Virus record (IMG/VR): IMGVR_UViG_3300013212_000088
Location: 160,001-224,000 of that record
Length of the DNA stretch: 64,000 nt
Strand: one strand, 5' to 3'
Source: a virus
Taxonomy: Duplodnaviria > Caudoviricetes
Shown here: one piece after another, positions 5 through 15,200 of the stretch
Layout of the letters: every line of letters begins with the position of its first letter
Position numbering within the stretch: the first letter of the stretch is position 1
Program-made: the position numbers and the translations under genes
The notes under the pieces: generated by a model
What the model saw: only the letters and a program-made list of their open reading frames with translations
Databases searched by the model: none
Told to the model about the DNA's origin: nothing

Positions 5-250
5 ATGAAGTTGCACGATATTCTCAAAGAAGAGGATGATGATTATTTTTTCTATAGAGAAGATAATATTGATAAGTTCTATTACAAAACTAAAAAGCTT
101 ATTTATTCTATTCCACAAAAAAGTTATATAAGAGGTATAGAACAAAAGGTTGATCCCAATGGTCTTGAAGATGTTTTTATAAGTTTTCTTTACGATTCTA
201 TATTTAGTTTTGAAGAAGCAATTTCAGACCTTTGGATTAAGGTTAAATAG
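5..250 (+). CDS. Hypothetical protein (81 aa)
   Basis: ORF whose stop abuts the next start; no recognised motif. Confidence 0.55.
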   Translation: MKLHDILKEEDDDYFFYREDNIDKFYYKTKKLIYSIPQKSYIRGIEQKVDPNGLEDVFISFLYDSIFSFEEAISDLWIKVK

Positions 251-825
251 TGAAACATTACTATCAAAATATACATGGCTGGTTTGATTATGAGAAATTA
301 TTTGAAACAGCAATACAAAATTGTCCAGAAAATGGAAAAATTGTAGAATTAGGTTGTTGGAAAGGTAAAAGTTCTTCTTACCTTATTGTTGAAGCATATA
401 ATTCCAATAAAAACATAGATATCAATTTTGTTGATACATGGGCTGGATCTCCTGAGCATTTAGATCCATCATTAGGCACATACGAAGAAGGGCTTGCTTC
501 AGATCCAGATTTTGTATATAAAGTTTTTCTAAATAATATTAATAAAACTTCTTATCCAAAAAACATACATAGGATGCACACATTTCAAGCATCCAAATTA
601 TTTGAAGATAATTCTATAGATTTTTTGTATATTGACACAGCGCATGAGTTTAAACATGTAGAAAAAGAAATTTCCATGTGGTATCCAAAAGTTAAGTCAG
701 GTGGAAGAATAGCTGGACATGATATATTTTATCCAGGTGTAATGAGAGCTGTTAAAGATTTTTCTAGAAAGTATGACGTCGAAATAAAAAAAATCAATTC
801 AAGTTGGATTGGGGTAAAATCATAA
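250..825 (+). CDS. Class I SAM-dependent methyltransferase (Methyltransf_24-like)
   Basis: Motif I VELGCWKGKSS, FVDTWAGS, FLYIDTAHE, WYPKVKSGGRIAGHD. Confidence 0.85.
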   Translation: MKHYYQNIHGWFDYEKLFETAIQNCPENGKIVELGCWKGKSSSYLIVEAYNSNKNIDINFVDTWAGSPEHLDPSLGTYEEGLASDPDFVYKVFLNNINKTSYPKNIHRMHTFQASKLFEDNSIDFLYIDTAHEFKHVEKEISMWYPKVKSGGRIAGHDIFYPGVMRAVKDFSRKYDVEIKKINSSWIGVKS

Positions 826-1403
826 TGGAACATTTTTATGAAGAAATTCAAGGTTGGTTTGATTACCAAAATGTTTATGACATTGCAATTAAAACATCAC
901 CAGAAAATTCTATATTAGTTGAAATCGGATGCTGGAAGGGTAAGAGTTCTTGCTATCTTTTGACACAAGCTTACAATTCTGGGAAAATGCTAAATCTGTC
1001 TTTTATTGATACATGGGCAGGCTCTATTGAGCATTTAGACCCTGAATGCGAATTTCATGAACCAGATCTCTTAACTAATAAAGATCATGTTTGGGATGTA
1101 TTCAACAAAAATATTGCAAGAGTTAATTACCCTAAATCTTTATTCAGAAGGGATACATTTGACGCTGTGAACTATTTTGAAGATAATTCAATTGCGTTTT
1201 TATATATAGATACAGCACATGAGTATGAACATGTAATAAAGGAAATAGATGCCTGGTACCCTAAGGTTAAATTAGGTGGTATTATAGCTGGTCACGATTA
1301 TTTTACCCCGACAGTCAACAAGGCAGTAAATGAGTTCTTTGAAATAAGACCTCATCCGCTAATTTCTTTAAATGCCAGCTGGATTGCCTTTAAAAATTAT
1401 TAA
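825..1403 (+). CDS. Class I SAM-dependent methyltransferase, tandem paralog of 250-825
   Basis: EIGCWKGKSS, DTWAGS, YIDTAHE, GGIIAGHD. Start moved to the ATG at 825 (TAATG overlap; MEHFYEEIQGWFDY aligns with the paralog N-terminus). Confidence 0.85.
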   Translation: MEHFYEEIQGWFDYQNVYDIAIKTSPENSILVEIGCWKGKSSCYLLTQAYNSGKMLNLSFIDTWAGSIEHLDPECEFHEPDLLTNKDHVWDVFNKNIARVNYPKSLFRRDTFDAVNYFEDNSIAFLYIDTAHEYEHVIKEIDAWYPKVKLGGIIAGHDYFTPTVNKAVNEFFEIRPHPLISLNASWIAFKNY

Positions 1404-1631
1404 ATGATTACACAATTATGCTGCGCTAAAGATGGAAACATATGTGAAATACTTAGCGTAGCAGGTAAAAATAGATCTAGGTTTGCAGAGCTTGGTTTTA
1501 ACAAAGGTGTGAGTGTAGAAGTTATATCACACATAGAAGATTCTCTAAGATTAAATATAAGAAATTACTGTATTGCCTTGCGAAAGTCAGAAGCAGAAGA
1601 TATAACAGTAAGAATCATAGAAAGTAAGTAA
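1404..1631 (+). CDS. feoA: FeoA-family SH3-like ferrous iron transport protein
   Basis: RFAELGFNKGVSVEV and IALRKSEAEDITV match the FeoA consensus (RL.xMGx.PG ... LALRxxEA). Confidence 0.75.
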   Translation: MITQLCCAKDGNICEILSVAGKNRSRFAELGFNKGVSVEVISHIEDSLRLNIRNYCIALRKSEAEDITVRIIESK

Positions 1632-2576: not shown

Positions 2577-3386
2577 TTAAATTACAAAACTAAATGTATT
2601 TAAATGGTTGTTTCTAATCTTGTCTGCATGTTCTGTTCTGTCCCATTGATGATAAATGTAGAAAGTTTCATTATTCTTAGTTTGAACTTTTTTACCATCA
2701 AAATTACATGGAACAAAACCCCATTTAATTCCTTCACCAGTAGCACAAAATGAATCAGTGAATGGGGAACAAACCATAATTTTAGGATTAGACATTAAGT
2801 ATGGATAAAGATAATTTAAAGTTGCCTGATCAGTGTTAGATTTACTTATTCTATTACTGTTAATCCAAAGCAATAAAAACAATTGACTTACAGCAAAAGG
2901 CTTTCCGCCAATTGTTCCACCATTAACAACATAATATTCCATAAAATCATCTTTATGTGCAGATAAAAATGAATGATAATATTTCATGTCATAAAAGTTC
3001 CATTCATTTGTTTTGATTTGAATACCCTCATTAACAACAAAAACATCTTTATCTGGGTGTTGCTTCATAAACTCGAATGGGTCTTTTTGAATGATTACGT
3101 CTCTAAAGTCAACATGCATAACATATTCATAATTATCAAAGTTCTCGACTAACCATTGATAATAAGACATGAATCTATCTCTTGGCCCATTTAAAATAGG
3201 GTTTTTAACTTCAACTACTGCTGTAAAGTATTTCTTAAATGTGTCAATTTGTTGTTGAGTTAAGTCTTTTACAAAACAGATTTTATCAAATGTGTTAAAC
3301 TTTGATAATGTAGTTAAAAATATATCAGCATCTACAGATTCAGCAAAATCTTTTCCCTGAACAAACGTTAGTAATGCATTTTTCAT
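2577..3386 (-). CDS. Putative GT-A fold glycosyltransferase
   Basis: HVDFRDVIIQKDPF (DxD-type), DQATLNYL, HQWDR. Start placed at the ATG at 3386 (MKNALL). Confidence 0.7.
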   Translation of the reverse strand: MKNALLTFVQGKDFAESVDADIFLTTLSKFNTFDKICFVKDLTQQQIDTFKKYFTAVVEVKNPILNGPRDRFMSYYQWLVENFDNYEYVMHVDFRDVIIQKDPFEFMKQHPDKDVFVVNEGIQIKTNEWNFYDMKYYHSFLSAHKDDFMEYYVVNGGTIGGKPFAVSQLFLLLWINSNRISKSNTDQATLNYLYPYLMSNPKIMVCSPFTDSFCATGEGIKWGFVPCNFDGKKVQTKNNETFYIYHQWDRTEHADKIRNNHLNTFSFVI

Positions 3387-3392
3387 ATAGGT

Positions 3393-3402
3393 ATTGTACA
3401 AT
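3393..3402. promoter_or_regulatory. Palindromic bidirectional -10 element ATTGTACAAT between divergent genes
   Basis: Gives TG-TACAAT on both strands, 6 nt before the ATG at 3386 (-) and 9 nt before the ATG at 3412 (+). Confidence 0.55.
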
Positions 3403-3411
3403 CTAAGTGTC

Positions 3412-4389
3412 ATGATAGTAAGTAAAACTCCATATAGAATAAGTTTTTTTGGTGGTGGTTCAGACTTACCATCCTATTATATGCAAGAAGAAGGATGCGT
3501 AATTTCTACTTCTATTGATAAATATCTTTACATAACTACTAGTAAAAAGTTTGATCAATCTATTAGACTTAGCTATTCTGTTACTGAAAATGTATCTGAA
3601 ACTAAACATCTTCAACATGATATTGTAAGAAATATCCTCGAAGTGTTTAAAGTAAAAACAGGAATTGAAATTACTTCTGTTTCTGATTTGCCTTCCAGCG
3701 GTACAGGCATGGGATCTTCTAGTGCTTTTGCTGTTGGTTTGATAAATGCACTCTTTAAATATACAAATGGCGCCAAACCTAATCCAGAAGCCTTAGCTCT
3801 TATGGCTTGCGCAGTTGAAATAGATATGTGCGAAAAAACAATTGGAAAACAAGACCAATTTGCTTGCGCTTATGGTGGATTCAATGAGTTTATTTTTAAG
3901 AAGAATAGTGTCATAGCTAATCCAATACAAATATCTCAAGATGTTAAAAAAGAATTAGAAGATAATATGCTTCTTCTTTACACTAACACTTCAAGACTAG
4001 CTAACGAAATTTTGAAAGAACAAAGCCAGAATACAGAATCTAATTTGACAACAATGAACAACCTTAAAGAAATGGTCAAATTGGCTCATATTTTCAAAGA
4101 TAATGTAATTAATCATAAATTAGAAAATGTAGGCGAAATGTTAGATTATTCATGGCAATTAAAGAAGAATCTAACATTAAACATATCTAACCCTGAATTA
4201 GATGAGCTTTATGAATATTGCAAAAAGCTTGGGGCAAAAGGTGGAAAGATTTTAGGAGCTGGTGGTGGAGGATTTATGCTTATATATGCTGACCCAAAAT
4301 CACAAGAAAAAATCAAAAAGGAATTGAGAAGATACAAACCTTTCAATGTAAAAATTGCTACTGAGGGTTCTAAATCTCAAGAGGTATAA
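3412..4389 (+). CDS. hddA: GHMP-family sugar-phosphate kinase, HddA-like (heptose-7-phosphate kinase)
   Basis: SKTPYRISFFGGGSD, PSSGTGMGSSSAF, GKQDQ, KILGAGGGGF. Start at the ATG at 3412. Confidence 0.8.
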   Translation: MIVSKTPYRISFFGGGSDLPSYYMQEEGCVISTSIDKYLYITTSKKFDQSIRLSYSVTENVSETKHLQHDIVRNILEVFKVKTGIEITSVSDLPSSGTGMGSSSAFAVGLINALFKYTNGAKPNPEALALMACAVEIDMCEKTIGKQDQFACAYGGFNEFIFKKNSVIANPIQISQDVKKELEDNMLLLYTNTSRLANEILKEQSQNTESNLTTMNNLKEMVKLAHIFKDNVINHKLENVGEMLDYSWQLKKNLTLNISNPELDELYEYCKKLGAKGGKILGAGGGGFMLIYADPKSQEKIKKELRRYKPFNVKIATEGSKSQEV

Positions 4390-4396
4390 TAAAATT

Positions 4397-4951
4397 ATGT
4401 ATGTTAATAAAGATTTACCACCACATTTAGGCGGACATGACAACGAAACGCATCTTGATAATGGTGTTTTAGATTATATGATTTCTAAGTACAAAGTAGA
4501 ATCATATTTGGACGTAGGATGCGGACCAGGAGGAATGGTTGAATTAGCTGCCTCTAAAGGTTTAAGTGTTCTTGGAATTGATGGTGACTTTACTTTAAAC
4601 CACAAAGAAAAAACATTAATTCATGACTACACAAAAGGTTCAGCTGATATTATTAAAAAGTTTGATATGGCTTGGAGCTGTGAGTTTCTTGAACATGTTG
4701 AAGAAAAATATATGCCTTATTACATGGATTCATTCAAAAAAGCAAAGTATGTAGTATGCACTTATGCTGTGCCAGGACAATGGGGACATCATCATGTTAA
4801 TTGCCAAACCATGGATTATTGGAAGCAAAAGTTTTCTGATTATGGATTTAAGTTTTCAGCAACAGAAACATTAAAACTTAGAGAAGCTTCTACAATGCCA
4901 GCAATTCATTTTAAAAGATCTGGAATGTTTTTCTTTAATCTAAACCCATAG
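4397..4951 (+). CDS. Class I SAM-dependent methyltransferase
   Basis: YLDVGCGPG, FDMAWSCEFLEHV, GHHHVN. Start likely the ATG at 4397. Confidence 0.8.
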   Translation: MYVNKDLPPHLGGHDNETHLDNGVLDYMISKYKVESYLDVGCGPGGMVELAASKGLSVLGIDGDFTLNHKEKTLIHDYTKGSADIIKKFDMAWSCEFLEHVEEKYMPYYMDSFKKAKYVVCTYAVPGQWGHHHVNCQTMDYWKQKFSDYGFKFSATETLKLREASTMPAIHFKRSGMFFFNLNP

Positions 4952-5384
4952 TTTTGTATCTTCCTATTACATCAGAGCATATACCATAACACATAGAAAT
5001 ATCAGAATAAGAATGGTTTTCTGGCATTACACATATAGAGCCTTGAATTAAATCTTCTCCAGTGTAAGTCCAAATGCGCCCTTTAGAAGTTAAAGTGTAA
5101 TTGTCATTCTGGTGCCAAAAGTATTCACTCTTCATATCAGCTTTACTCATAAAAAGTAAGGCTTCTTTATTTTTACAGTGAACAAATAGCTTGTCATTAT
5201 TTAAGAAGTCTAATTCAATTTTATAAACAGGTTTGTCATGACCTAAAAATAAATTATCTTCAATTACATAAAGATCTATTTCTACGTGATAACCCAAACC
5301 AATAGCCCTAATTATATAATCAGGGCTATTTTCATTTTGCTCATTTATAGAAGTGACGTTACCTCTATGAGAAATTAAAACCAT
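4935..5384 (-). CDS. GDPD/PLC-like phosphodiesterase-fold protein
   Basis: ISHRGN...EN, VEIDL, LGHD, HCKN motifs. Confidence 0.65.
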   Translation of the reverse strand: MVLISHRGNVTSINEQNENSPDYIIRAIGLGYHVEIDLYVIEDNLFLGHDKPVYKIELDFLNNDKLFVHCKNKEALLFMSKADMKSEYFWHQNDNYTLTSKGRIWTYTGEDLIQGSICVMPENHSYSDISMCYGICSDVIGRYKTMGLD

Positions 5385-6043
5385 TATCTTTTCTTTGCTA
5401 GTGTATCAAATTGGGTAATTACCAACTTGTATCCTAATAATTGTAGTCTTTTAGTTAGCAAAGCTACATCTGCCTTATCTGAATGAGAATTAGATTCAAA
5501 ATAAATCTGATCTGGGCACTTATCATACTCAACAAAGTAATCTAAAGCTGCATTTACTAATTTACAATCATATCCCTCAACATCAACCTTTAAATACTTA
5601 ATATAACCAATTTCATATTCATCAACTAAGTTTTTAAAGGTAAGACATTTAACTGTGTCTACATTTACCATGCCCAATTCCAAAAGGTTGTAGGTAGTAA
5701 ACTTAGACTTGTCTTCAGCTAGATGCCATTCGTAAGGATTGTAGTAGTAAGCCACATGAAAATCATGAGGTTTATTCACAGTATTACAGCCAGCCAACCA
5801 ACCCCCTAAATTATGTTTATTAATTACATCTTCATGTACATAATAGAAAACAATTGTTCCATCACCCAAATCTTCATCTGACACCAAAGCTGCATTAACT
5901 TTGACTACATTTGGCTTATCTGGCAATTTATCTTGATACATTTTAATTGGCTCAACAGACAATCCAACAGTATTATCATCAGCCTTTTCAATCAAGGTAT
6001 CAAAAAAACAAGTCCCAACCTCTACAAAGTCGTAAGTTTTCAT
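5384..6043 (-). CDS. FkbM-like methyltransferase
   Basis: DFVEVG, LSVEP, KYLKVDVEGYD, IYFESN. Confidence 0.7.
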   Translation of the reverse strand: MKTYDFVEVGTCFFDTLIEKADDNTVGLSVEPIKMYQDKLPDKPNVVKVNAALVSDEDLGDGTIVFYYVHEDVINKHNLGGWLAGCNTVNKPHDFHVAYYYNPYEWHLAEDKSKFTTYNLLELGMVNVDTVKCLTFKNLVDEYEIGYIKYLKVDVEGYDCKLVNAALDYFVEYDKCPDQIYFESNSHSDKADVALLTKRLQLLGYKLVITQFDTLAKKR

Positions 6044-7215
6044 TCAACTAGGCCCCACTTGTTAATTGCTTGAAGATATTCATTTTCAAAAGTTTTATCG
6101 ATAGCCTGTCTCATAGCTTTAGCTCCTGCAACTGTTCCTGAAGGATGACCATGTAGCGCTCCACCACAATTTGCAAGGTAATTGATTCCAAACTTTTCAG
6201 TGATAGTATTGACAATTCCAGGGTGCATTCCACAAGACAATGCTGGAACTACATTTCTAGAGTGCAAAATACCCATAGTGTTTTTAAGATCGTTTTCATC
6301 ATCACTTGCGTAGCCGCCCCACATTCCAGTATGAATAAAGTCAACGCCCATTAAACCTGCTAAGTAGCAAATTACACTCCAATCAATATGAAAAGCATGC
6401 TTCTTGTTTGTAAGGATCTTATCGCCACTCTTTTGGAAGTGCATAAACAATGGAAGGTCTAATTCTCTTACAGACTTGTAAACACCCATTCCTGACCAGA
6501 AATTGATGTGAATACCGTTCCCGCCCTCTTGATGAATAAACTTAACTCTATCAAGTATGTGAGCTGGATCTGCATTGACACAGAAACAGTAAACTACATT
6601 CTTATCTCTAATGTATTCCGAGATAATAGGAACTCTTTCTTCTAATCTACATACTTCAGGGTTGGACATGATTTCATCTTCCTTGATGAAATTAACTCCA
6701 CCCTCAACCATTTCTTTTACCATATCGAGAAGAATACCAGGGCTCATTCCAGTTTTAGGCTTGCAGATACCGCCTAATAATGGTCTATTATGTGACTTGG
6801 TAAATTCTCTTGCACCAGTAATACCAAACTTAGGTAATTTAAAATATTTATCAATTACCCAATTAGGAATAATAAGATTTTCGAGCCAACATGTTTCAAT
6901 AGTGTCAATGTCTAACTGTCCACCCATCAAAAAACATAGAAGTTGAGAAATACCATCCGTAGAAAAGTCAATATTTGTTACAGGAAATCCAATTTCAACA
7001 CGACCAGAGTTAAGCTCAAGGTCTGAACAATTTTTTACAACACAAGAATGATTGTAAAATAACTCATCTGTTTCTCTTTCAAGTCTTACTAAAGGATTGC
7101 CAACGCTCTGGCCAATTGCAAGATTCCATGCAGCATCCCTTACGCCTTTTGAAGATTCTAAAAAATAAAATCCTTTGATATATCTTTCAGAATCAATTTC
7201 ATCTACAAAAATCAT
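6040..7215 (-). CDS. RuBisCO-like protein (form IV RLP)
   Basis: GGICKPKTG (K175/K177), NFIKEDE (K201-x-D203-E204), FMHFQ (H294), DFIHTG (H327), LSCG (S379), GGALHGHP (G403/404). The E60, N123 and K334 equivalents appear substituted. Confidence 0.88.
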   Translation of the reverse strand: MIFVDEIDSERYIKGFYFLESSKGVRDAAWNLAIGQSVGNPLVRLERETDELFYNHSCVVKNCSDLELNSGRVEIGFPVTNIDFSTDGISQLLCFLMGGQLDIDTIETCWLENLIIPNWVIDKYFKLPKFGITGAREFTKSHNRPLLGGICKPKTGMSPGILLDMVKEMVEGGVNFIKEDEIMSNPEVCRLEERVPIISEYIRDKNVVYCFCVNADPAHILDRVKFIHQEGGNGIHINFWSGMGVYKSVRELDLPLFMHFQKSGDKILTNKKHAFHIDWSVICYLAGLMGVDFIHTGMWGGYASDDENDLKNTMGILHSRNVVPALSCGMHPGIVNTITEKFGINYLANCGGALHGHPSGTVAGAKAMRQAIDKTFENEYLQAINKWGLVE

Positions 7216-7538
7216 TCTTTCACCTCATATTTATCCCCAGGAACAGATGGAGACTTTACACATACAATTGTACAGTCTTCAAGAAATTCTGGTTGTGCAA
7301 TTTCATTTTTTTCAATTAAAAATATACTACCTGGGCTTAAACTTTTACCATTAATAATCATTTTACCCGATATCAAAACATTGACTTCAACTGCTTCTTT
7401 GTGATAATGCTTGGGCCACTCTTCACCTTTTGGATGAAATAAAACACCAACCTCAAACTTATCAGTCTTGTAAATGGATGGGTCAAAGTTTCCTATAAAC
7501 CAACCCCTAAACATATTTTCTAAGTTATCAATTATCAT
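7212..7538 (-). CDS. Cupin-domain protein
   Basis: GWFIGNF, HYHKEAVEVNVLISG cupin metal motif. Start likely the ATG at 7538, overlapping the upstream TGA. Confidence 0.75.
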   Translation of the reverse strand: MIIDNLENMFRGWFIGNFDPSIYKTDKFEVGVLFHPKGEEWPKHYHKEAVEVNVLISGKMIINGKSLSPGSIFLIEKNEIAQPEFLEDCTIVCVKSPSVPGDKYEVKE

Positions 7539-8143
7539 CTTTTTGTAATAAAAGTCATTCCCCAATCAGTTTTTTCAACACATCTTTTGGAAATTTCATA
7601 TTTATCATTTTTTAAATTATTCACTAAATTTGTAGGTCCAGGATGAAAATTGGTGTCATGAAAAGCAATTATTCCATCTTTAGAAAGTAATTCAATATAT
7701 CGCCAGTCATTTAAAACTTGATTAATACTTGCCCAGCTATCAATAAAAATAAAATCAAATTCTTCAACACTGTGAGACTTAGCAAAACTTAAAACTTCCT
7801 CAATATTAGATGAATCAGTGGTTATGGTAAAAACATTATTTTTGATGTCATTCAAATCTGACTTATCTTTTATGTCTACTCCAAAATATTTAGTAGATGT
7901 GAGTTTGCTGTCAAGTAAAAGCTTAGTAAATGATCTGTCTGACCTATTACCAACACCTATTTCTAAAATTGAATTACAGTTATTCCTTATCGTCCCGAAA
8001 TAATGTATCAAAATACTTATATTTGCATCTGATACTTCTTTAGGAGGCTCAAATGTAGTAGGCCAATCAGAATCATCATGGTCAGTATATGTTCTAATTT
8101 CTTTATATAAATCTCTTTTAATTAATTCATCAATAGTTATCAT
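7535..8143 (-). CDS. Class I SAM-dependent methyltransferase (Methyltransf_24-like)
   Basis: ILEIGV, YFGVDI, FDFIFIDS, GIIAFHD. Confidence 0.75.
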   Translation of the reverse strand: MITIDELIKRDLYKEIRTYTDHDDSDWPTTFEPPKEVSDANISILIHYFGTIRNNCNSILEIGVGNRSDRSFTKLLLDSKLTSTKYFGVDIKDKSDLNDIKNNVFTITTDSSNIEEVLSFAKSHSVEEFDFIFIDSWASINQVLNDWRYIELLSKDGIIAFHDTNFHPGPTNLVNNLKNDKYEISKRCVEKTDWGMTFITKR

Positions 8144-8852
8144 TTGGGTTTTCCTTTAAAAACAAATCCAAATCTTCTTCAGTGCCTATAGCCCAATGCT
8201 GGCAATTAGGAATATGATAGATACCAACTTTATATCCACCTTCTACTAATTTATTATACGAAGGACCAATGTAAAACTCACCATTCGGAGCTCTTTCATT
8301 AGAAGCAATCATAGAATTAGCACTTTCTACAAAATATCTTCCTGATTTCCAAAAGTGTATTCCATTCAAAGAAATGTTACTTATTATTTGCTTCTCTTGG
8401 ATTTCTGTTACATTGCCTGATTTATCTAATTTAGCGTAACTGTTTTTATTCGTGTCTGCAAAATAAGTAACAACAAAACCATCTTTAGGATAGTTGTTAC
8501 AAAAAGATTGAAATGTTTTTTTATCCCAATGCATTATTTGATCGCAGTTGGTTATAATTAAAGGTTCTGAATTATTGATTAAATCTTTAGCTAATAAAGC
8601 AGTACAAGCTGGGCCTTCTGTCAAATGATCAACAGAAATAACAGTGCAATTACAAATCGAATGCAGTATTTCATCAACCTTATAATCTCTAATATGCTCT
8701 TCTTTAACAATAAATATATAATTACCATCAATTCCTAAAGATTTGATTACAGCCTCAATCATATACTCGTTGTTGAATTTTATAAGGGGTTTGGGTACTT
8801 TACTATTTGGAAATCTACTTCCTAGACCAGCCATAGGAATTAAAATATTCAT
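8130..8852 (-). CDS. Sugar/polyol-phosphate nucleotidyltransferase (NTP_transferase, GT-A fold)
   Basis: ILIPMAGLGSRF...PKPLI, EGPACT, ITNCDQ, EFYIGP. Confidence 0.85.
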   Translation of the reverse strand: MNILIPMAGLGSRFPNSKVPKPLIKFNNEYMIEAVIKSLGIDGNYIFIVKEEHIRDYKVDEILHSICNCTVISVDHLTEGPACTALLAKDLINNSEPLIITNCDQIMHWDKKTFQSFCNNYPKDGFVVTYFADTNKNSYAKLDKSGNVTEIQEKQIISNISLNGIHFWKSGRYFVESANSMIASNERAPNGEFYIGPSYNKLVEGGYKVGIYHIPNCQHWAIGTEEDLDLFLKENPNDNY

Positions 8853-8886: not shown

Positions 8887-8956
8887 AAACAGGGGAAGAA
8901 AAATCTTCCCCTGTTTAATATTAATAATAGGGGAAGAATAAATCTTACCCTATTAT
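8887..8956 (-). terminator. Two tandem related hairpins downstream of MCP (double terminator)
   Basis: AAACAGGGGAAGA-AAAA-TCTTCCCCTGTTT (8887-8916, U-tract on the minus strand) and ATAATAGGGGAAGA...TCTTACCCTATTAT (8924-8956). Confidence 0.75.
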
Positions 8957-8975: not shown

Positions 8976-9830
8976 TTAACTGACTGTAATTTTACTCACA
9001 GCAAAATCGTTGATGAGAGCAAATCCGAGCTCTTCGTAAACAACCCATCCGAGACGAAGTCTCTTTGGATCGTCAGCTGGAAGAACGGTAATGTCTTGGC
9101 GAACTGGCATTGCACCAACGAATTGGGCAGGTGCTAGGACGTAGACAGCGTTCTTAGGAACCATGGTGCTGACGTGGATGTCTGCAGAGTAGATATGGCC
9201 GTAGAGACCGGTCATAAGGATGTCTCTTTGAGTTGCCTCATCGAAGAATTCCTTACCCCAGTTTCTGATATCCTTGTATCTTTGTGGGTGAAGAACAACC
9301 TTAGCACCGATGAGTTCGTGCTCTTCAATGAGAGTCAACGCAAGGTTGATGTTCTCTGGTTGAAGAGTACCGGAAACACTGATGGATTGGTCGGTTGGAA
9401 CACCGGCATTGATGACCTTGAAGACTTCAGTATCTTCTTGTCTTTGGAGGGAGTCCTTAGCACGGACTTGAGCTCTATCGACAATGTAGAATCTTCTTTG
9501 GCGAATCTCATTGAGTCTGATTTGTGGGTGAGCAGCAAGTTCAATTGTTGGAACGAGGAGCTCTTCAGCTTCGACTTCTGCGGATGGAACACCACCACGC
9601 TTAGGAATGACGTAGGACTTTACAGCAACGTCTCTTTCGTAGCGAGCAAGTGCGCCTTGTGGAAGCTCATCGACCATCAATAACTTACGACCAATTGCTT
9701 GGTACATAAGGGAGGTCTTGATTGGCTCGACCATAGCTTGTGCAAGAGCTGTACGACCTTCAGCGGTCTCGAGCGCCATTGCAATAATGGCCTCTCTTTG
9801 CTCGTTTGAGTTTCTCTTAATCATTGACAT
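8976..9830 (-). CDS. Major capsid protein, HK97 fold (284 aa)
   Basis: HK97-like pattern (E-loop LPQGALARYERD, spine helix RAKDSLQRQEDTEVF, GHIYSADIHVS, WVVYEELGFAL). Strong AAGGAG SD, optimised codon usage, and position at the end of the portal-protease-scaffold operon. Confidence 0.82.
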   Translation of the reverse strand: MSMIKRNSNEQREAIIAMALETAEGRTALAQAMVEPIKTSLMYQAIGRKLLMVDELPQGALARYERDVAVKSYVIPKRGGVPSAEVEAEELLVPTIELAAHPQIRLNEIRQRRFYIVDRAQVRAKDSLQRQEDTEVFKVINAGVPTDQSISVSGTLQPENINLALTLIEEHELIGAKVVLHPQRYKDIRNWGKEFFDEATQRDILMTGLYGHIYSADIHVSTMVPKNAVYVLAPAQFVGAMPVRQDITVLPADDPKRLRLGWVVYEELGFALINDFAVSKITVS

Positions 9831-9858: not shown

Positions 9859-10494
9859 TTAGATGGCTCTCTCGAAGTAAGCTTGGGTGAAGTAGAGTAA
9901 GCCAGCAGCTGAGTCATACTTGTCAACAATACCTACAACTGGGCCATGCGCCTTGTTTGCTAATTCAACCATCTTGCCACTGTCATCAACAGCAACAGTA
10001 AGGTAAGCACCTGGAGCATATGTAGCGGTAGAACCGTCTGTACCAGCAGCTGAAGTAGCTGCAGAGGTAAATTGGTCGGTAACGAATTGTCCACCTGGGG
10101 TGTTAAATACGCCAACGCCTCTTCTTGGACCTTCGTAGCCTGAAGATTGTGCAGAAAGATTGGTAACGCCATTAACGTTTTCAGCTTGGAAATCGCCAAT
10201 TGCTCTCTTTGCAGCAACGTAGAAGCCGTTGTTGTTTGATTGGAAGACACCGGAACCATCGATGTAGTTGGAACCAACTGGATCAGCAAGGATCATGGTG
10301 TTGTCGGTTCTTGCAGTATCATCTGCGGAGAAACCAACGAAGCCGCCAACGATAGCGCCAGAAGCTCTATCAGCTAAAACTACTCTACCAACATTGGATG
10401 TATCACGAGCTAAACAAGCTCCAGCATGCCATGAAGCATTAGCTGCTGTATCGTAATTTGCAACGATGACTGAATTTAATGCACGAATTGCCAT
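9859..10494 (-). CDS. Putative head decoration/cement protein
   Basis: Gly/Ala-rich beta protein directly upstream of MCP, with a strong SD and the same high-expression codon bias. Assignment is by synteny. Confidence 0.55.
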   Translation of the reverse strand: MAIRALNSVIVANYDTAANASWHAGACLARDTSNVGRVVLADRASGAIVGGFVGFSADDTARTDNTMILADPVGSNYIDGSGVFQSNNNGFYVAAKRAIGDFQAENVNGVTNLSAQSSGYEGPRRGVGVFNTPGGQFVTDQFTSAATSAAGTDGSTATYAPGAYLTVAVDDSGKMVELANKAHGPVVGIVDKYDSAAGLLYFTQAYFERAI

Positions 10495-10526
10495 TTTTTT
10501 ATTCTCCTAAAATTAATTTGTGAGGA

Positions 10527-12128
10527 CTAATCCTCGATTTGTGGCATTGACCAAGTACCCTTAAGGGCAGCTTGGATGTCAAGAGCTGCACTATTGGACG
10601 AACCATAAAGTGCAGGGGAAGTAGAAATACCCATCGTGGAGGCAGTTCTAACATTGAGTCTTTCTGCAGATGCTGCAGCAACACGCTCTGCGGATGCTTG
10701 GGCTGATCTGAGAAGTAATTGGGTGTTTTTGATCATAACGTCTGCTCTGATACCATCTTCGAGAAGTTGGCCAGCATAGTCGTCTGTTTCATTGGAATTG
10801 ATAATTCCAGCTAATGCTAATTTGGTTGCACAGGAATAAGCTGCCTTAATTCTTGCTGTATCAACTGAAACGCTTGCTTTGATACCATCAGGCATCATTT
10901 CTTTAACTTCAGTTGCAGTATTGTTTTGTTCAACTAAGCCATCAACTAATGTTTTGGTTGTTTCACCATCGGCTGCTGATTCAACTTTCTTACCAGAACA
11001 TGTTTCACACTCAGCCATTTCAGCTTCAGCTTCAGTCATGCTTTTTCTTGTTCCACATTTTTCACACTTGTAAGCATGTTTCATGCCTGCTTCATGTTCA
11101 TCTTTTTGTGCAACAGTTGTTTTACGTGCTTGAAGATCCATTTCAGATGGAATCTCAAAACCCTTTAATTTAGCTTCGCCTGTAGTAGGAACTACACGGT
11201 CCATTTGCTTCCAATCTACTTCGTACTCAAAGTCTGAACTCTCTCCAGAACCTTCGAATCCAACAGCATCCATGGAATCCTTGAATTGAAGATTTTTAGG
11301 GTTCTTAGTAGGAACCTTTGTCTTAGCGAAATCTGGGTTTTCACCCTTCATTGAGTTTTCGCCATCTAACTTCATGGTTGGATACTTCATTTCACCTGGA
11401 TACTGATTCATTTCGTCACTGTATTTAAAACTGCCTGACGCCTCAACATGCTCCTCTTCAGAAGCAAATTTGCGAAGGATCTCTTCTCTCTCCGCACGGC
11501 GAGCAGCTAATGATTGTCTATTCATTTTGTTGTCTCTCCTGCTATTTTTATGCATTTGGCTCTCATCGGAATTAACTTCCATATCATCATCATCTGAGTC
11601 CATGTCCATTTCTTCTGACATATCGTCGTCTTCCATGTCCATATCTTCATCAGAATCATTTCCGCCTAATACCCTGTCAAGCGCCTCTTGCACTGCCTTT
11701 TGTGCGGCGTCAACCATATCAGCGGGAACTTCAATTTCAAAAGTTGCGATATCGTTATCTTCTACTTCGCTTGCTTCTTCATCATCTTCATCAATATTTA
11801 AATCATTAGCACCATCTAATGGCATGTCTTCTTCGTCATCGTTAGTCATTTCTTTTGCGAAGTCTGCAGTCTCTTCATGGCTGTCATCAAGGTTTAAAAA
11901 TCCACCAGATGTCTCTTTTGTAAAGCCTGCCTCTCTTGCAAGATTTGGAAGATACTTTGCTCTGATAGCTTTAGCCACTGCAATTGCTTCACTTTCATTA
12001 AGTGATGCAGTGCGTTGCATGTCTGCTACACATGTTTGGAAATCTTCCTTATCGGTTGCTTTCAATTCGGCTAAACGAAGAGCGACAAATTTATCTTGAA
12101 TACCAGCTGTCTTCGTACTATTTTTCAT
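10527..12128 (-). CDS. Putative scaffold/core protein with acidic tract and Zn ribbon
   Basis: Long D/E tracts, CEKC...CETC, KxA motifs, position between protease and MCP. Confidence 0.55.
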   Translation of the reverse strand: MKNSTKTAGIQDKFVALRLAELKATDKEDFQTCVADMQRTASLNESEAIAVAKAIRAKYLPNLAREAGFTKETSGGFLNLDDSHEETADFAKEMTNDDEEDMPLDGANDLNIDEDDEEASEVEDNDIATFEIEVPADMVDAAQKAVQEALDRVLGGNDSDEDMDMEDDDMSEEMDMDSDDDDMEVNSDESQMHKNSRRDNKMNRQSLAARRAEREEILRKFASEEEHVEASGSFKYSDEMNQYPGEMKYPTMKLDGENSMKGENPDFAKTKVPTKNPKNLQFKDSMDAVGFEGSGESSDFEYEVDWKQMDRVVPTTGEAKLKGFEIPSEMDLQARKTTVAQKDEHEAGMKHAYKCEKCGTRKSMTEAEAEMAECETCSGKKVESAADGETTKTLVDGLVEQNNTATEVKEMMPDGIKASVSVDTARIKAAYSCATKLALAGIINSNETDDYAGQLLEDGIRADVMIKNTQLLLRSAQASAERVAAASAERLNVRTASTMGISTSPALYGSSNSAALDIQAALKGTWSMPQIED

Positions 12129-12299: not shown

Positions 12300-15200
12300 T
12301 TAGTCAATCCAAGTAATTGTAACGTCAAGTTTGCTTGGATTTTTCTTGTTTTGAGCAACGGTGGTTTTGGAAATATTTCCGCAAGAATGGCAGAAAGAAG
12401 TATCCTTAACCTTGTTAGCTTCTCTATTACCGCACTTAGGGCAGACCATACCAATTGGCAATCTTCTAGATGCTGTTCTGGTAAATCCTTCCTTTGCAGT
12501 TTCAAGATAAACATCTGCATCAACTGTAGCTGCCAATCTAAATAAGCCCTTAACAGAAGCTGTAGCTGGTAAACCAGGCATACCTGGTGCAGGCGCTCCA
12601 GGAGCTGCAGGTGCAGGTGCACCCATAGGACCGCCAACTGGCGCTCCAGCAGCAGGATCTAAATCTCCCATACCACGCATTTCTCCCATATCTGCCTCTG
12701 GTTCTTCATCCTTCTCGCCTTGTCCGCCTGTTCCATCAGAAATAAGCTTTAAGGACATTTGAATCTCATAAGTAGATCCACATGAATTACAGGAACCCTT
12801 TGATTCAGCAACATCTACATCATCAGAACCACAAACTGGGCAAACAGTACCCCATGGTTTCTTGTCACCAGGTTCCGACATTGCATCCATGTCTTCACCA
12901 ATAGGGGCATCTGCTGCCATTGGGTCTGTGGTCATAGCAGAAATGCCTGCTCCATTAAATGCTCCAGCGTTCATACCCATGTCAGGTGCTGCAGGAGCGG
13001 CCATTCCACCACCCATACCTTGTCCTGGAGCAGCCATTTGAGCATATCTATTTAAGATTCTGCTTCTTCTTTCATTTCTTGCCATTCTAGCTTCTTCAGT
13101 CATGAGAACTTGTGGTTCACCCATTTCTTCTTCAGGGCCAATTTCTCCACCAACCATAGGAACTTCAGAAACACTTTGTGCAGAGAATGATTTTGATGTT
13201 CTGGAAGATACGGTTGCAGTAATGTCACCATAAGCAGAAACGTTCAAATCTGTGAATGAGAATGTGTTAGGATCTACTGTAAATCCATTGCCTTGAAGAA
13301 CTTCCATTGCTTTTTGTCTAAAAGCATCTTCAAATCCCTCATCATTTGGCTTAAGACCATCTAAATCTTCAGTTCTACAAACAAATCTAATTGAATCAGA
13401 TGTTTCATGAGTAACTTGCATTGCTGCTGTTCTTTCAGCATTTTGCTTTGTTTCAATAGCTTTAACAATTAACTTTTCAGCTAATTCACCATCAGATACA
13501 AGCTTCTTAGCAGCTGTTACAATTGATTTAGTTGAAAGGTTGAAATTAGTAGCATAATCTGCCAACCATCCAATAACATTTGTTGAAAGATCAGTTTTAG
13601 AAGCAACTCTTTCGCCCCAGAATTCTCTTCTAGCTCTTGATTTCAATCTTGCACTAGTAGCAGAAGCTGTTCTTGCTTTGTTAACCTCAGCAACCATGGC
13701 TTCTTCATCCATTTCTTCAACTTCTTCAGCAACTTCTTCTGCAGTCGCTCCTGCTTCTTCTGCAGACATTGCCATAGCAGAGATAACTGACTTTAAATCG
13801 TTCTTAGAAATTAAAGCATCTCCAGTAACATTGCCTCTAAGTGCAGTTCTGAGTTCTTCTGATTTGGAAACCTTAGCTTTTGCTTCAGATGTAGAACCTT
13901 TAGCATTTGACATTTTTAATTCAGCAAGTTTTGTTACAGATTCCATTGTAAAATCAACTTCACTGGCTGCAACTCTAAGTGCTTCAGCAAGATCACCAGC
14001 AGTTACTGTCTTAGAAACTTTATTTCCTAAGGATGCAAGTACAGCTGTTAAAGGTGAAGTTGAAACTCTTTCACTCTTAAAGAAATCTGCTTTAGATGCA
14101 AGTTTTGCACGAACACTTGTACCAGCTGATGCTGTTGCAATCATTTCAGGTAAAAGTTCTTCATTTGCAAGTTTTGTTGAAGCTTCTACAACTTCAGATG
14201 GTGTGGAGTATGATTCAACTACAGCTTCGCCTAATGCTTCAACTGTATGAACCATAACTTCATGAGCTGGAGCAGAACCTTCTACTCTACAGCATTCCAA
14301 TCTTTCGTTAAGTCCTTCTTCAGAAACACCCTTATTAGCTTGTGCAACTAATTCAGATAAAGCTTCTTTGACATCAGCATCATTTACTTTATGACCATAA
14401 AGGCCAGCTGAGGTTAATGCTTCTTCACCATACTCTGCATTATCTTTTCTTAAAGATTCTAAAGATTCTTCTCTAGTCTTATCAGCATTAGGATCTGCAT
14501 GCATTGTTGCAACTCCGTCAGCTAAAGTCTTATAAGGAACGCCTTTTCTTTCGCCCTTAAGTTCTAATTCTTTGACATCTTTATCCATGTGAGGGGCCTT
14601 GATTGCAGTTTTAACAAAATCTTTAAGAAGATCTGCTGCAACTCTAGCACCTTGACCACTTTCCATGGCAGAAAGTTGTTGTTCAGAAAGAATTGGTTCC
14701 CAGTTTGATCTATTACCATTAGTGAATCCGGTAATAGAACCATCTGTTGAAAGAACTAAACGATTACCAGCCCCATCCTCAACCTTAAAATCGATTGTAA
14801 CGGCGGCTGCTAATTTTTTGCGTTGTTCAGACGCTATCTTAGCAAAATGATCCATTTGATTATTTCCCTCCGCCCTAAGAGAATGGGGCGTATTGTTTCT
14901 AATATTTTTATTTCGTTCATTAGCAACTCTAATAACGTTTTGAGTAACAGAAGCAATAGATGTATTATCTGACAATGCTTCTTTGAATTGAATCAATCCC
15001 TTAGTTAGTTTTATAAATGAACTATCTTTGGGTTGAGTTGATGTGCTGGCAAAGACTTCTCTTCTGCCATCTTTAGATGCCCATACAAGATTATGTGATG
15101 AAGAAGCTAATGCAACAGCTCCTCCAACGCCTTGCTGTCCACTTGTAAATAATGCAGGCTCTATCATTCTGCCTACATTTCCTGCTGGCATATAATTGGC

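What the first reader, a model, noticed from the sequence alone, without database searches (positions are those of the whole stretch)
4935..8852. RuBisCO-like protein inside a phage sugar-nucleotide biosynthetic operon
Seen: a coupled minus-strand operon of nucleotidyltransferase, methyltransferase, cupin, RLP, FkbM-like methyltransferase and GDPD-like protein. The RLP keeps the carbamylation lysine and Mg ligands (KEDE), K175/K177 and H294, but lacks the E60, N123 and K334 equivalents. Known: characterised form IV RLPs are enolases, isomerases, decarboxylases or transcarboxylases in methionine salvage or sugar-acid catabolism (for example apiose). Inference: here the RLP works anabolically, making an unusual (possibly branched) sugar or polyol phosphate that is nucleotide-activated, methylated and transferred. 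That would be a new RLP chemistry carried by a virus.
Basis: partly seen in the sequence, partly recalled or inferred. Interest (0 to 1): 0.82.

Follow-up and report, generated by a model that had tools for sequence, protein, structure and literature searches.

The report
Phage RuBisCO-like protein in glycan-precursor module
A giant freshwater phage carries a RuBisCO-like enzyme that cannot fix CO2 and is locked into a conserved gene module with a sugar nucleotidyltransferase, also found in surface-sugar gene clusters of SAR11, Legionella and tiny archaea, which points to an untested role in building an unusual activated sugar.

Summary
The operon is real. Six minus-strand genes overlap by 1-14 nt, just downstream of the capsid gene of a 261-kb freshwater jumbo phage. 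The RLP belongs to the uncharacterised "form IV-like" clade that Jaffe et al. reported in phages in 2018/2019. A fully supported branch separates it from MtnW, OiaX-like and form III sequences.

It keeps K175, K177, K201, D203, E204, H327, S379, G381 and G403/404. It lacks E60, N123, H294 (now Q), R295 (now K) and K334 (now Y).

New here:
- RLP + NTP-transferase + 108-aa metal cupin + 149-aa mini GDPD-like protein (+ sugar O-methyltransferase) recurs in about 80-90% of 53 viral loci.
- It survives gene-order changes and occurs as NTP-RLP and MTase-GDPD fusions.
- It also sits in cellular glycan loci: the Pelagibacter LPS-core region, Legionella beside LicD, and MAGs labelled DPANN or CPR.

The anabolic reading is therefore well supported by context. 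The actual chemistry is still unknown, and the module is not virus-specific. This scan had already reached a similar reading on other DNA.

The parts
8130..8852 (-). Sugar/alcohol-phosphate nucleotidyltransferase, first gene of the operon (240 aa).
   Evidence: PF00483 23.8 bits (cut-off 21.2) and PF12804 25.9 bits. phrog_3980 at 1.7e-56. PDB 4evw, an NDP-sugar pyrophosphorylase, at 3e-8. IPMAGLGSRF signature. Next to the RLP in 49 of 53 viral and 44 of 50 cellular loci. Fused to the RLP in 637-aa proteins.
7535..8143 (-). Methyltransf_24/CmcI-type SAM-dependent (sugar) O-methyltransferase (202 aa).
   Evidence: All 16 homologues match PF13578 (best 2.3e-8) and 5 match RMNT_CmcI. Present in 28 of 53 viral loci at variable positions. 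Fused to the GDPD-like protein in L013.
7212..7538 (-). Small metal-binding mono-cupin (108 aa from the ATG at 7538). The listed ORF 7212-7565 starts at an upstream TTG.
   Evidence: Invariant H35, H44, H46 and E51 in cupin motif 1. AF2 pLDDT 96. Foldseek hits to cupins including archaeal phosphomannose isomerases 7zvm/7zvy. Profile hits to 7zvm and quercetinase. phrog_24762 at 9e-36. In 48 of 53 viral loci, usually immediately upstream of the RLP.
6040..7215 (-). RuBisCO-like protein of the form IV-like clade (391 aa). Mg/carbamate site intact, carboxylase-specific residues lost.
   Evidence: PF00016 at 1e-33. Below every NCBIfam equivalog cut-off. Clade split from all other RLP/RuBisCO by a 100* branch, with reference clades labelled. 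Residue map.
5384..6043 (-). Divergent FkbM-like methyltransferase candidate (219 aa). Weak assignment.
   Evidence: PF05050 20.6 bits (cut-off 22.7) and TIGR01444 21.9 bits. YLKVDVEG motif shared with a PF05050 protein of L057. Found in only 2 of 53 viral loci.
4935..5384 (-). Mini GDPD-like phosphodiesterase or phosphotransferase (149 aa), last gene of the operon.
   Evidence: Invariant H6, R7, E18, N19, E35, D37, H49 and D50, matching the GDPD catalytic motifs. Profile versus PDB GDPDs 1.5e-5. AF2 pLDDT 95. Foldseek: GDPDs, weak. AFDB 152-aa GP-PDE protein A8G604 at 6e-17. Pfam GDPD model negative. In 42 of 53 viral and 21 of 50 cellular loci.
4355..4951 (+). Class I SAM methyltransferase, convergent with the operon and overlapping its end by 17 nt.
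   Evidence: PF13489 at 1.4e-6 and PF08241 at 1.2e-5. Overlap shown.
3394..4389 (+). GHMP sugar(-phosphate) anomeric kinase, HddA/WcbL-like (331 aa).
   Evidence: GHMP_kinases_N and _C. NF049969 heptose 7-phosphate kinase at 3.9e-47, but 161 bits against a 600 cut-off. PDB 4usm/4usk/3k85/4n3o at ~1e-36. Found only in the two closest phage relatives, L002 and L003.
2577..3413 (-). Candidate GT-A-fold glycosyltransferase (278 aa). A lead only.
   Evidence: No Pfam or PHROG hit. Language-model neighbours are viral clusters carrying Nucleotid_trans, GT_PLOD, GT8 or GT6. Conserved in L002 and L003. Not LicD-like.
250..1403 (+). Two tandem TylF/Methyltransf_24 O-methyltransferases (250-825 and 804-1403), at the far end of the glycan island.
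   Evidence: PF13578 at 6e-14 and 3.8e-17, with weak PF05711 TylF.
8887..8916 (-). Strong terminator-like hairpin between the capsid gene and the operon. A TATAAT-like box lies just before the NTP-transferase ATG.
   Evidence: 13-bp stem with 6 GC pairs plus a T-run. Intergenic sequence shown.

Best explanation
The operon is an anabolic module. It makes a nucleotide-activated, probably O-methylated, unusual sugar or sugar-alcohol phosphate for a surface glycan, either of the infected cell envelope or of the virion.

Shown:
- The RLP, an NTP-transferase, a small metal cupin and a mini GDPD-like protein form one inherited unit, plus a sugar O-methyltransferase in about half the loci. The unit is translationally coupled here, fused in some relatives, and embedded in glycan-synthesis islands in phages and cells.
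- The RLP keeps the carbamyl-Lys/Mg site, K175/K177 and a phosphate-binding site, and has lost every carboxylase-specific residue.

Inferred, step by step:
1. The RLP uses RuBisCO's first partial reaction, Mg-assisted enolisation, to epimerise a common ketose phosphate or to shift its carbonyl. It may instead act on an NDP-linked ketose, since the lid residues E60, T65, W66 and K334 are replaced by small or aromatic ones.
2. The cupin acts as a metal-dependent aldose-ketose isomerase, like phosphomannose isomerase.
3. In this phage an HddA-like GHMP kinase adds the anomeric phosphate.
4. The NTP-transferase makes the NDP (or CDP) derivative.
5. The mini-GDPD makes, trims or transfers a phosphodiester. 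Legionella has LicD beside the module instead.
6. The methyltransferases O-methylate the product, and a GT-A-like protein transfers it.
For: - Co-occurrence: 49, 48 and 42 of 53 viral loci carry the NTP-transferase, cupin and GDPD-like genes. 44 of 50 cellular loci have the NTP-transferase adjacent.
- The trio persists with a different gene order at ~39% RLP identity.
- Fusions: NTP+RLP of 637 aa and MTase+GDPD-like of 386 aa.
- 1-14 nt overlaps between the genes here.
- 14 active-site positions are fixed in at least 166 of the 167 members.
- Glycan neighbours: WavE, GT11, DegT, epimerase; GT29, GT8, CTP_transf_3, MptE-like; GT2, RmlD, WavE in cells.
- Pelagibacter: in the LPS-core region with heptose genes, a GT9 heptosyltransferase and a KdsB-family (CTP_transf_3) gene.
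- Legionella: beside LicD.
- HddA-like kinase and extra methyltransferases in the window.
- The cupin resembles small phosphomannose isomerases.
- The closest catabolic relative pairs its RLP with a cupin sugar-phosphate isomerase, transketolase and an FGGY kinase, which points to ketose-phosphate substrates.
Against: - There is no biochemical evidence of any kind. Substrate, nucleotide and acceptor are unknown.
- No kinase or mutase is universal in the module, so the route to the NTP-transferase substrate is unclear.
- The cupin is missing from many cellular versions, including the SAR11 45% clade and DPANN.
- The GDPD-like assignment rests on motifs and a 50-residue profile match. The FkbM-like and GT-A calls are below threshold.
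- The complex prediction for NTP-transferase with RLP gave no answer.
- No RNA run holds the locus.
Confidence: 0.6

Rival explanations
1. CDP-alcohol variant. The NTP-transferase is a TarI/IspD/LicC-like cytidylyltransferase acting on a primary phosphate ester that the RLP produces from a pentulose 5-phosphate. The phospho-alcohol is then installed as a phosphodiester substituent by the mini-GDPD, or by LicD in Legionella, with no glycosyl-1-phosphate involved. This is a sub-variant of the main model with a different linkage chemistry.
For: - The NTP-transferase also matches NTP_transf_3 and, weakly, inositol-phosphate cytidylyltransferase.
- No universal anomeric kinase or mutase is present.
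- LicD phosphotransferase is adjacent in four Legionellaceae, which lack the GDPD-like gene.
- The GDPD catalytic set is intact.
Against: - This window has an HddA-like anomeric kinase, which fits an NDP-sugar route better.
- The best PDB match of the NTP-transferase is an NDP-sugar pyrophosphorylase.
- LicD is found only in Legionellaceae.
Confidence: 0.22
2. The module makes a modified nucleotide or a free small molecule rather than a glycan building block. Candidates are a DNA hypermodification precursor, a signalling molecule or an anti-defence compound.
For: - Jumbo phages often modify nucleotides.
- The module combines an NTP-transferase, methyltransferases and a phosphodiesterase-like protein.
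- Tad2-like domains and an ART domain lie about 2-11 kb upstream of the window start (L115).
Against: - Cellular copies sit in LPS/O-antigen-type loci with glycosyltransferases and LicD.
- Viral copies sit among GTs and CMP-sugar synthetases.
- No DNA-metabolism genes are coupled to the module.
Confidence: 0.1
3. A catabolic or salvage auxiliary gene. The RLP works as in methionine salvage, the MTA-isoprenoid shunt or sugar-acid (apiose-type) catabolism, to feed host metabolism during infection.
For: - All characterised RLPs are catabolic or salvage enzymes (established knowledge).
- In the R. rubrum MTA shunt an RLP works with a cupin (from memory: Erb 2012, Warlick 2012).
- The basal clade member P0139 lies in a sugar-catabolic operon.
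Against: - The RLP is not in the MtnW, OiaX-like or form III clades.
- No MtnA/B/K/X/D genes, kinases of the DUF1537 type or transporters are nearby.
- The NTP-transferase linkage and fusions make no sense for catabolism.
Confidence: 0.05
4. A true CO2-fixing RuBisCO, or a non-enzymatic relic.
For: RuBisCO_large fold.
Against: - K334, N123, E60, H294 and R295 are all replaced, and there is no small subunit or PRK.
- A relic is excluded by the invariance of 14 active-site positions across 167 sequences down to ~56% identity, most of which also hold in more divergent clade members at 33-54%.
Confidence: 0.01

Closest known systems
'Form IV-like' RuBisCO-related proteins of phages and Beckwithbacteria (Jaffe et al., bioRxiv 10.1101/386292; Mol Biol Evol 2019, PMC6389311)
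   Same: This is the same clade. It consists of IMG/VR phage sequences, many from large phages, with a Beckwithbacteria MAG copy nested inside (L072). It is divergent from all named RLP clades and its key residues differ from known form IV.
   Different: The paper left the function 'unclear'. The preprint text has no hit for nucleotidyl, cupin, glycosyl, methyltransferase or polysaccharide. That distribution covers SAR11, Legionellaceae, Azospirillum and Nonomuraea, plus MAGs labelled Verrucomicrobiota and DPANN. It suggests that phages acquired the module from cells.
MtnW/YkrW 2,3-diketo-5-methylthiopentyl-1-phosphate enolase (methionine salvage RLP)
   Same: RuBisCO large-subunit fold. K175, carbamylated K201, D203 and E204 are retained, loop-6 K334 is lost, and the chemistry is enolisation.
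   Different: A separate clade. TIGR03332 scores 102 against a 514-bit cut-off and PRK09549 scores 128 against 409. There are no salvage genes nearby. Position 123 is Gly here, not the catalytic Lys of MtnW (the latter from memory).
R. rubrum RLP (5-methylthioribulose-1-P 1,3-isomerase) plus cupin 1-methylthioxylulose-5-P methylsulfurylase (MTA-isoprenoid shunt; recalled from Erb et al. 2012 and Warlick et al. 2012)
   Same: An RLP paired with a small cupin acting on pentulose phosphates. The product (DXP) feeds a pathway that contains an IspD-type cytidylyltransferase and a GHMP kinase.
   Different: The phage clade is phylogenetically separate. The context is glycan synthesis, not SAM/MTA salvage.
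OiaX/OiaT RLPs of D-apiose catabolism (Carter et al. 2018)
   Same: RLPs acting on phosphorylated sugar-acid or ketose intermediates. An OiaX-like clade (P0224) is present in the tree.
   Different: NF042437 scores 129.5 bits against a 700 cut-off. The clade is different. Those enzymes are catabolic with kinases and transporters, not nucleotide-activating.
GDP-D-glycero-alpha-D-manno-heptose pathway (GmhA, HddA, GmhB, HddC) and type II PMI-GMP enzymes
   Same: An HddA-like GHMP kinase plus an NTP-transferase in the window. The NTP-transferase followed by a PMI-like cupin mirrors the domain order of bifunctional GMP-PMI enzymes. The Pelagibacter copy sits among heptose and LPS-core genes.
   Different: The window has no GmhA (SIS) or GmhB (HAD). 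The kinase is far below the HddA equivalog cut-off. An RLP has no counterpart in any known NDP-heptose or NDP-hexose route.
CDP-ribitol / CDP-choline systems (TarI/TarJ, LicC/LicD)
   Same: A nucleotidyltransferase activating a phospho-alcohol that a LicD-family enzyme installs as a phosphodiester. LicD sits beside the RLP/NTP pair in Legionella.
   Different: There is no TarJ-type reductase. LicD is absent from the phage and from all non-Legionellaceae loci. A mini-GDPD is present instead.

Membership tests
RuBisCO large-subunit superfamily (PF00016) | Catalytic TIM-barrel domain detected above the curated threshold. | tested here: met
   117.3 bits against a cut-off of 30.1, E 1e-33, residues 131-382. 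99 PDB RuBisCO/RLP sequences match at E<=1e-5.
Bona fide RuBisCO (forms I-III) | Carboxylase residues E60, N123, H294, R295 and K334, together with K175, K201, D203 and E204. | tested here: not met
   E60 to G, N123 to G, H294 to Q, R295 to K, K334 to Y. rubisco_III scores 162 bits against a 497 cut-off.
MtnW/YkrW enolase (TIGR03332, PRK09549) | Equivalog score above cut-off and placement in the MtnW clade. | tested here: not met
   101.8 against 513.6 and 128.3 against 409 bits. The true MtnW representative P0228 (652 bits) lies across a 100* branch.
OiaX 3-oxo-isoapionate-4-P decarboxylase (NF042437) | Equivalog score above cut-off. | tested here: not met
   129.5 against 700 bits. The OiaX-like P0224 clade is separate.
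Form IV-like phage/Beckwithbacteria RLP clade (Jaffe et al.) | Groups with IMG/VR phage RLPs and Beckwithbacteria, apart from the six classical RLP clades. | tested here: met
   30-representative clade with 100* support. The Beckwithbacteria MAG L072 and 50 IMG/VR sequences fall in the same clade.
Form IV-like RLP clade | Clade-specific active-site pattern: K-P-K, K-E-D-E, H-x-Q-K-S-G-D, H-x-G-M-x-G-G-Y, S-C-G, G-G. | tested here: met
   These positions hold in at least 158 of 167 members, and most of them in all 167. G35, Q36, S37, K152, K154, K178, D180, E181, Q261, Y302, S327, G329 and G351 are invariant in 23 diverse members.
Nucleotidyltransferase (PF00483 / GT-A NTP_transferase clan) | Domain above cut-off and the N-terminal G-x-G-(T/S)-R ... 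K signature. | tested here: met
   23.8 against 21.2 bits. MAGLGSRF...KVPKPL. G9, G11, R13 and K21 invariant. Substrate and nucleotide specificity are not testable with these tools.
Cupin superfamily | Double-stranded beta-helix fold with motif 1, G-x5-H-x-H-x3,4-E-x6-G. | tested here: met
   Motif invariant. AF2 pLDDT 96.3. 200 PDB cupin hits at E<=1e-3. Motif 2 lacks the usual His.
Glycerophosphodiester phosphodiesterase (PF03009 GDPD) | Full (beta/alpha)8 GDPD domain detected by the family model, with the catalytic H-R, E-N, E-x-D and H-D residues. | tested here: inconclusive
   Catalytic motifs are invariant, and the profile hits PDB GDPDs at 1.5e-5 over ~50 residues. The protein is only 149 aa. 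The Pfam model finds nothing in the genome, and 1 of 21 homologues matches at E 0.038. Foldseek TM by query is 0.4-0.5.
FkbM methyltransferase (PF05050/TIGR01444) | Score above cut-off, with N-terminal SAM motif and C-terminal D-x-E-G motif. | tested here: inconclusive
   20.6 against 22.7 and 21.9 against 37.7 bits. The C-terminal motif is present and the N-terminal motif is degenerate.
HddA heptose 7-phosphate kinase (NF049969) | Equivalog score above cut-off. | tested here: not met
   161 against 600 bits. It is a GHMP kinase whose nearest relatives are HddA/WcbL, but it is not an equivalog.

The most novel reading that the evidence does not exclude
This would be the first RLP working in nucleotide-sugar biosynthesis. 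The enzyme would act on a nucleotide-linked ketose, or deliver its product directly to the fused or adjacent nucleotidyltransferase. It would use RuBisCO's enolisation step to create a rare sugar stereochemistry or carbon skeleton. A new minimal GDPD-derived enzyme would then install or edit it as a phosphodiester on surface glycans. The pathway would be shared by the ocean's most abundant bacteria (SAR11), Legionella, DPANN/CPR and their large phages, which would use it to remodel the cell surface or the virion during infection.
Probability: 0.25. Interest if true: 0.85.

Novelty: new variant of a known kind. Interest (0 to 1): 0.7.

Why it matters
The RuBisCO superfamily is a classic test bed for how new enzyme functions arise from one active site. 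Every RLP function assigned so far is catabolic or a salvage reaction.

This clade is large. More than 2,700 proteins matched the query at E<=1e-5 in the metagenome database, not all of them from this clade, and the clade itself spans about 30 clusters at 50% identity. It is locked to a nucleotidyltransferase inside glycan-synthesis loci, which would make it the first biosynthetic RLP.

It would also define an unknown sugar or phospho-substituent on the envelopes of SAR11, Legionellaceae and episymbiotic archaea and bacteria. Those structures govern phage adsorption and grazing resistance. Phages carrying the same module could rewrite the host surface, for example to exclude superinfection, or decorate their own particles.

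The hypothesis is directly testable, because cultured carriers exist: Legionella drozanskii, L. nautarum and L. maceachernii, Nonomuraea rosea and Azospirillum oleiclasticum.

Tried and rejected
- blastn and tblastn of the cassette and the RLP against 50,697 deposited phage genomes found no match. All relatives are uncultured.
- Complex prediction for RLP with NTP-transferase gave no answer (score 0.00). It is not evidence either way.
- The Pfam GDPD model on the phage genome and on 21 x149 homologues was essentially negative.
- WavE and LicD were searched in the phage genome and are absent. The WavE control also rang nowhere, so that result is uninformative.
- The 278-aa downstream protein shows no similarity to Legionella LicD.
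- LicD-versus-GDPD complementarity: LicD was found only in four Legionellaceae loci, too few to test the idea.
- Literature searches for an assigned function of this clade found only Jaffe et al. The terms tried were RLP with phage, cytidylyltransferase, cupin, Pelagibacter/LPS and IV-like. One search was swamped by plant 'RLP' papers.
- RNA evidence: no RNA run holds the stretch. The holders are lake, freshwater and estuary DNA metagenomes from 10 studies.
- An idea considered and dropped: that the module is an MEP-like route (IspD/IspE/IspF analogues fed by an RLP+cupin DXP shunt). The GHMP kinase is HddA-like, not IspE-like, it is present only in the two closest relatives, and all contexts are glycan loci.

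Full report
**What is there.** The window is bases 160001-224000 of a 261-kb IMG/VR virus record estimated to be 73% complete. Near-identical DNA occurs in lake, freshwater and estuary metagenomes from 10 studies, and no RNA run holds it.

Immediately downstream of an HK97-fold major capsid gene (8976-9830, NF042927 at 6e-56) there is a 123-nt spacer with a strong terminator-like hairpin. Six minus-strand genes follow, and successive reading frames overlap by 14, 4, 4, 4 and 1 nt:
- an NTP-transferase
- a Methyltransf_24/CmcI-type O-methyltransferase
- a 108-aa cupin
- a 391-aa RuBisCO-like protein (RLP)
- a weak FkbM-like protein
- a 149-aa GDPD-like protein

The island continues on the other strand with a class I methyltransferase, an HddA/WcbL-like GHMP sugar kinase and two TylF-like methyltransferases. 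There is also a 278-aa protein whose only lead is GT-A-type glycosyltransferase neighbours in a language-model search. G+C content (0.32-0.38) stays within the genome's range.

**The RLP.** PF00016 is matched at 1e-33, but the protein is far below every curated equivalog cut-off: form III, form II, MtnW and OiaX.

I aligned it with form III-like, MtnW, OiaX-like and other representatives and tallied 167 clade members.
- Kept: K175, K177, K201, D203, E204 (as K-E-D-E), H292, H327, S379, G381 and G403/404.
- Replaced: E60 to G, T65 to N, W66 to P, N123 to G, H294 to Q, R295 to K, H298 to D, K334 to Y.

Nearly all of these positions are invariant across the clade. This argues for an active enzyme with a carbamate/Mg enolisation site and at least one phosphate site. 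CO2 fixation is not possible.

**Clade placement.** An exhaustive search of 1.8 billion representatives found only 52 clusters at E<=1e-30. In an ML tree of 110 representatives, 30 form a clade containing the query. A branch with 100% SH-aLRT support separates it from all others.

Reference clades were labelled with NCBIfam:
- P0228 is a true MtnW (652 bits).
- P0224 is OiaX-like.
- P0172 and P0169 are form III-like.

The stated refutation condition, placement in the MtnW/YkrW clade, is not met. The clade corresponds to the "form IV-like" phage/Beckwithbacteria group that Jaffe et al. described with "functionality unclear". The preprint text has no hit for nucleotidyl, cupin, glycosyl, methyltransferase or polysaccharide. 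I found no later paper assigning a function.

**Is the cassette conserved?** Yes, strongly. Counts among 53 IMG/VR loci carrying a relative of the RLP:

| Partner gene | Loci | Note |
|---|---|---|
| NTP-transferase | 49 | |
| Cupin | 48 | usually NTP, cupin, RLP in direct succession |
| GDPD-like | 42 | usually right after the RLP |
| Methyltransf_24 MTase | 28 | variable positions |

Most of the loci that lack a partner are cut off by a contig end.

Further evidence of linkage:
- The trio persists with permuted order (RLP, cupin, NTP) in members only ~39% identical.
- Natural fusions exist. NTP-transferase+RLP proteins of ~637 aa still have the cupin and GDPD-like genes in the same operon. 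An MTase+GDPD-like protein of 386 aa also exists.
- In a close relative of this phage (L003; capsid 97%, RLP 90%, cupin 82%), the NTP-transferase is only 64% and the MTase 41% identical. The FkbM-like and GDPD-like genes are missing within 8 kb. The module is therefore mosaic even between sister phages.

**Not virus-specific.** A scan of one genome per prokaryotic species found 50 loci. Carriers include:
- a complete Pelagibacter chromosome (58% identity) and many SAR11 single-cell genomes
- a complete-chromosome MAG labelled Verrucomicrobiae
- Beckwithbacteria and other CPR
- Woese-, Pace-, Nano- and Micrarchaeota
- Legionella drozanskii, L. nautarum and L. maceachernii, and a Francisellaceae genome
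- Azospirillum oleiclasticum and Nonomuraea rosea

The NTP-transferase is adjacent in 44 of these loci, the GDPD-like gene in 21 and the cupin in 14.

With outgroup rooting, the deepest branches are cellular and the viral sequences are nested. At least 4-6 virus/cell switches are needed. Some "cellular" MAG contigs are identical to viral contigs and are probably mis-binned phage DNA.

**Context.** Viral neighbourhoods are rich in glycan genes:
- WavE
- GT11, GT8, GT29 and GT2 glycosyltransferases
- CMP-sugar synthetases (CTP_transf_3)
- MptE-like proteins
- DegT aminotransferases
- NAD-dependent epimerases and dehydratases
- DHQ-synthase-like cyclases
- radical SAM enzymes
- HAD proteins

Cellular neighbourhoods show the same character:
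- In Pelagibacter the module lies within the LPS-core region. Its neighbours are GmhA, split HldE, an HldD-like epimerase, a GT9 heptosyltransferase and a KdsB-family (CTP_transf_3) gene.
- In Legionella it lies beside a LicD-family phosphotransferase.
- Other cellular loci have RmlD-like reductases, GT2 and WavE.

The one basal exception (P0139) sits in a sugar-catabolic operon. That operon has a cupin-type sugar-phosphate isomerase (PF06560), split transketolase, an FGGY kinase and an aldolase. This suggests the ancestral substrate was a ketose phosphate.

**The small partners.**
- The cupin folds confidently (pLDDT 96). It has an invariant H-x-H...E metal motif and resembles small archaeal phosphomannose isomerases, among many other cupins.
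- The 149-aa protein also folds confidently (pLDDT 95). It keeps every GDPD catalytic motif, and its family profile matches solved GDPDs over the first ~50 residues at 1.5e-5. It is about 100 residues shorter than a GDPD barrel and is invisible to the Pfam model. A 152-aa "GP-PDE" protein in AlphaFold DB is 47% identical. I treat it as a minimal, GDPD-derived phosphodiester-handling enzyme.

**Mechanism (inferred).** The evidence fits an anabolic route to a nucleotide-activated rare sugar or sugar-alcohol phosphate.
- The RLP supplies enolisation-based epimerisation or carbonyl migration of a ketose phosphate, or of an NDP-ketose, given the loss of the bulky lid residues.
- The cupin supplies aldose-ketose isomerisation.
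- The NTP-transferase supplies activation.
- The mini-GDPD, or LicD in Legionella, supplies phosphodiester chemistry.
- The methyltransferases O-methylate the product.

In this phage an HddA-like kinase and a GT-A-like protein would complete a heptose-pathway-like scheme. None of these steps is demonstrated. Rivals are weighed in the Rival explanations section: a CDP-alcohol variant, nucleotide or small-molecule synthesis, catabolic salvage, and true RuBisCO.

**Verdict.** The anabolic interpretation is well supported by comparative genomics but remains chemically unresolved. Phage RLPs were already known. The conserved module, its fusions and its presence in glycan loci of SAR11, Legionella, DPANN and CPR appear to be unpublished. 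They make the function experimentally accessible. Other readers and one follow-up agent of this scan reached a similar reading on other DNA.

Noticed in passing
window 16653-19031 (-): The 792-aa Mu-like portal protein (PF06074) carries a C-terminal DUF559/MTES_1575 restriction-endonuclease-like domain at residues ~704-775. This is an unusual fusion for a portal.
   Followed up: no
L115 (genome 148001-160400, just upstream of the window): 7199-8068 and 9936-10649 (+): Two proteins have weak matches to the Thoeris anti-defence Tad2-like domain, at 26.4 bits (just above the 25-bit cut-off) and 22.0 bits (below it). They may be anti-defence genes near the glycan island.
   Followed up: no
L115 3410-5827 (-) and 1136-2671 (-): An 805-aa protein has a GH5 cellulase domain and is a possible tail-associated glycan depolymerase. 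A 511-aa protein has an ART-PolyVal ADP-ribosyltransferase domain.
   Followed up: no
window 1404-1631 (+): A 75-aa FeoA-domain protein (PF04023, 6.7e-12) sits inside the methyltransferase-rich island. This is odd for a phage glycan locus.
   Followed up: no
L003 versus window (IMG/VR contig of 315,852 bp): A sister jumbo phage has a 97% identical capsid and a 90% identical RLP, but its NTP-transferase (64%, 349 aa) and MTase (41%) have been exchanged. No FkbM-like or GDPD-like gene lies within 8 kb. Module parts are swapped between near-identical phages.
   Followed up: partly
L044 (viral) and L070 (MAG labelled Crocinitomicaceae); L063 (MAG labelled Methanobacteriota): RLP sequences on some MAG contigs are identical to, or nested within, IMG/VR viral contigs. 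Several 'cellular' carriers on short contigs are probably mis-binned phage DNA.
   Followed up: partly
L029, L030, L035, L039, L040 (viral sub-clade): In this sub-clade the module is accompanied by a DHQ-synthase-like sugar-phosphate cyclase and a radical SAM enzyme. This hints at a cyclitol or otherwise rearranged C7 product in those phages.
   Followed up: no
window 12300-16526 (-): A 1408-aa ORF near the head genes has no convincing family match. A 1377-aa counterpart lies near the module in L057.
   Followed up: no
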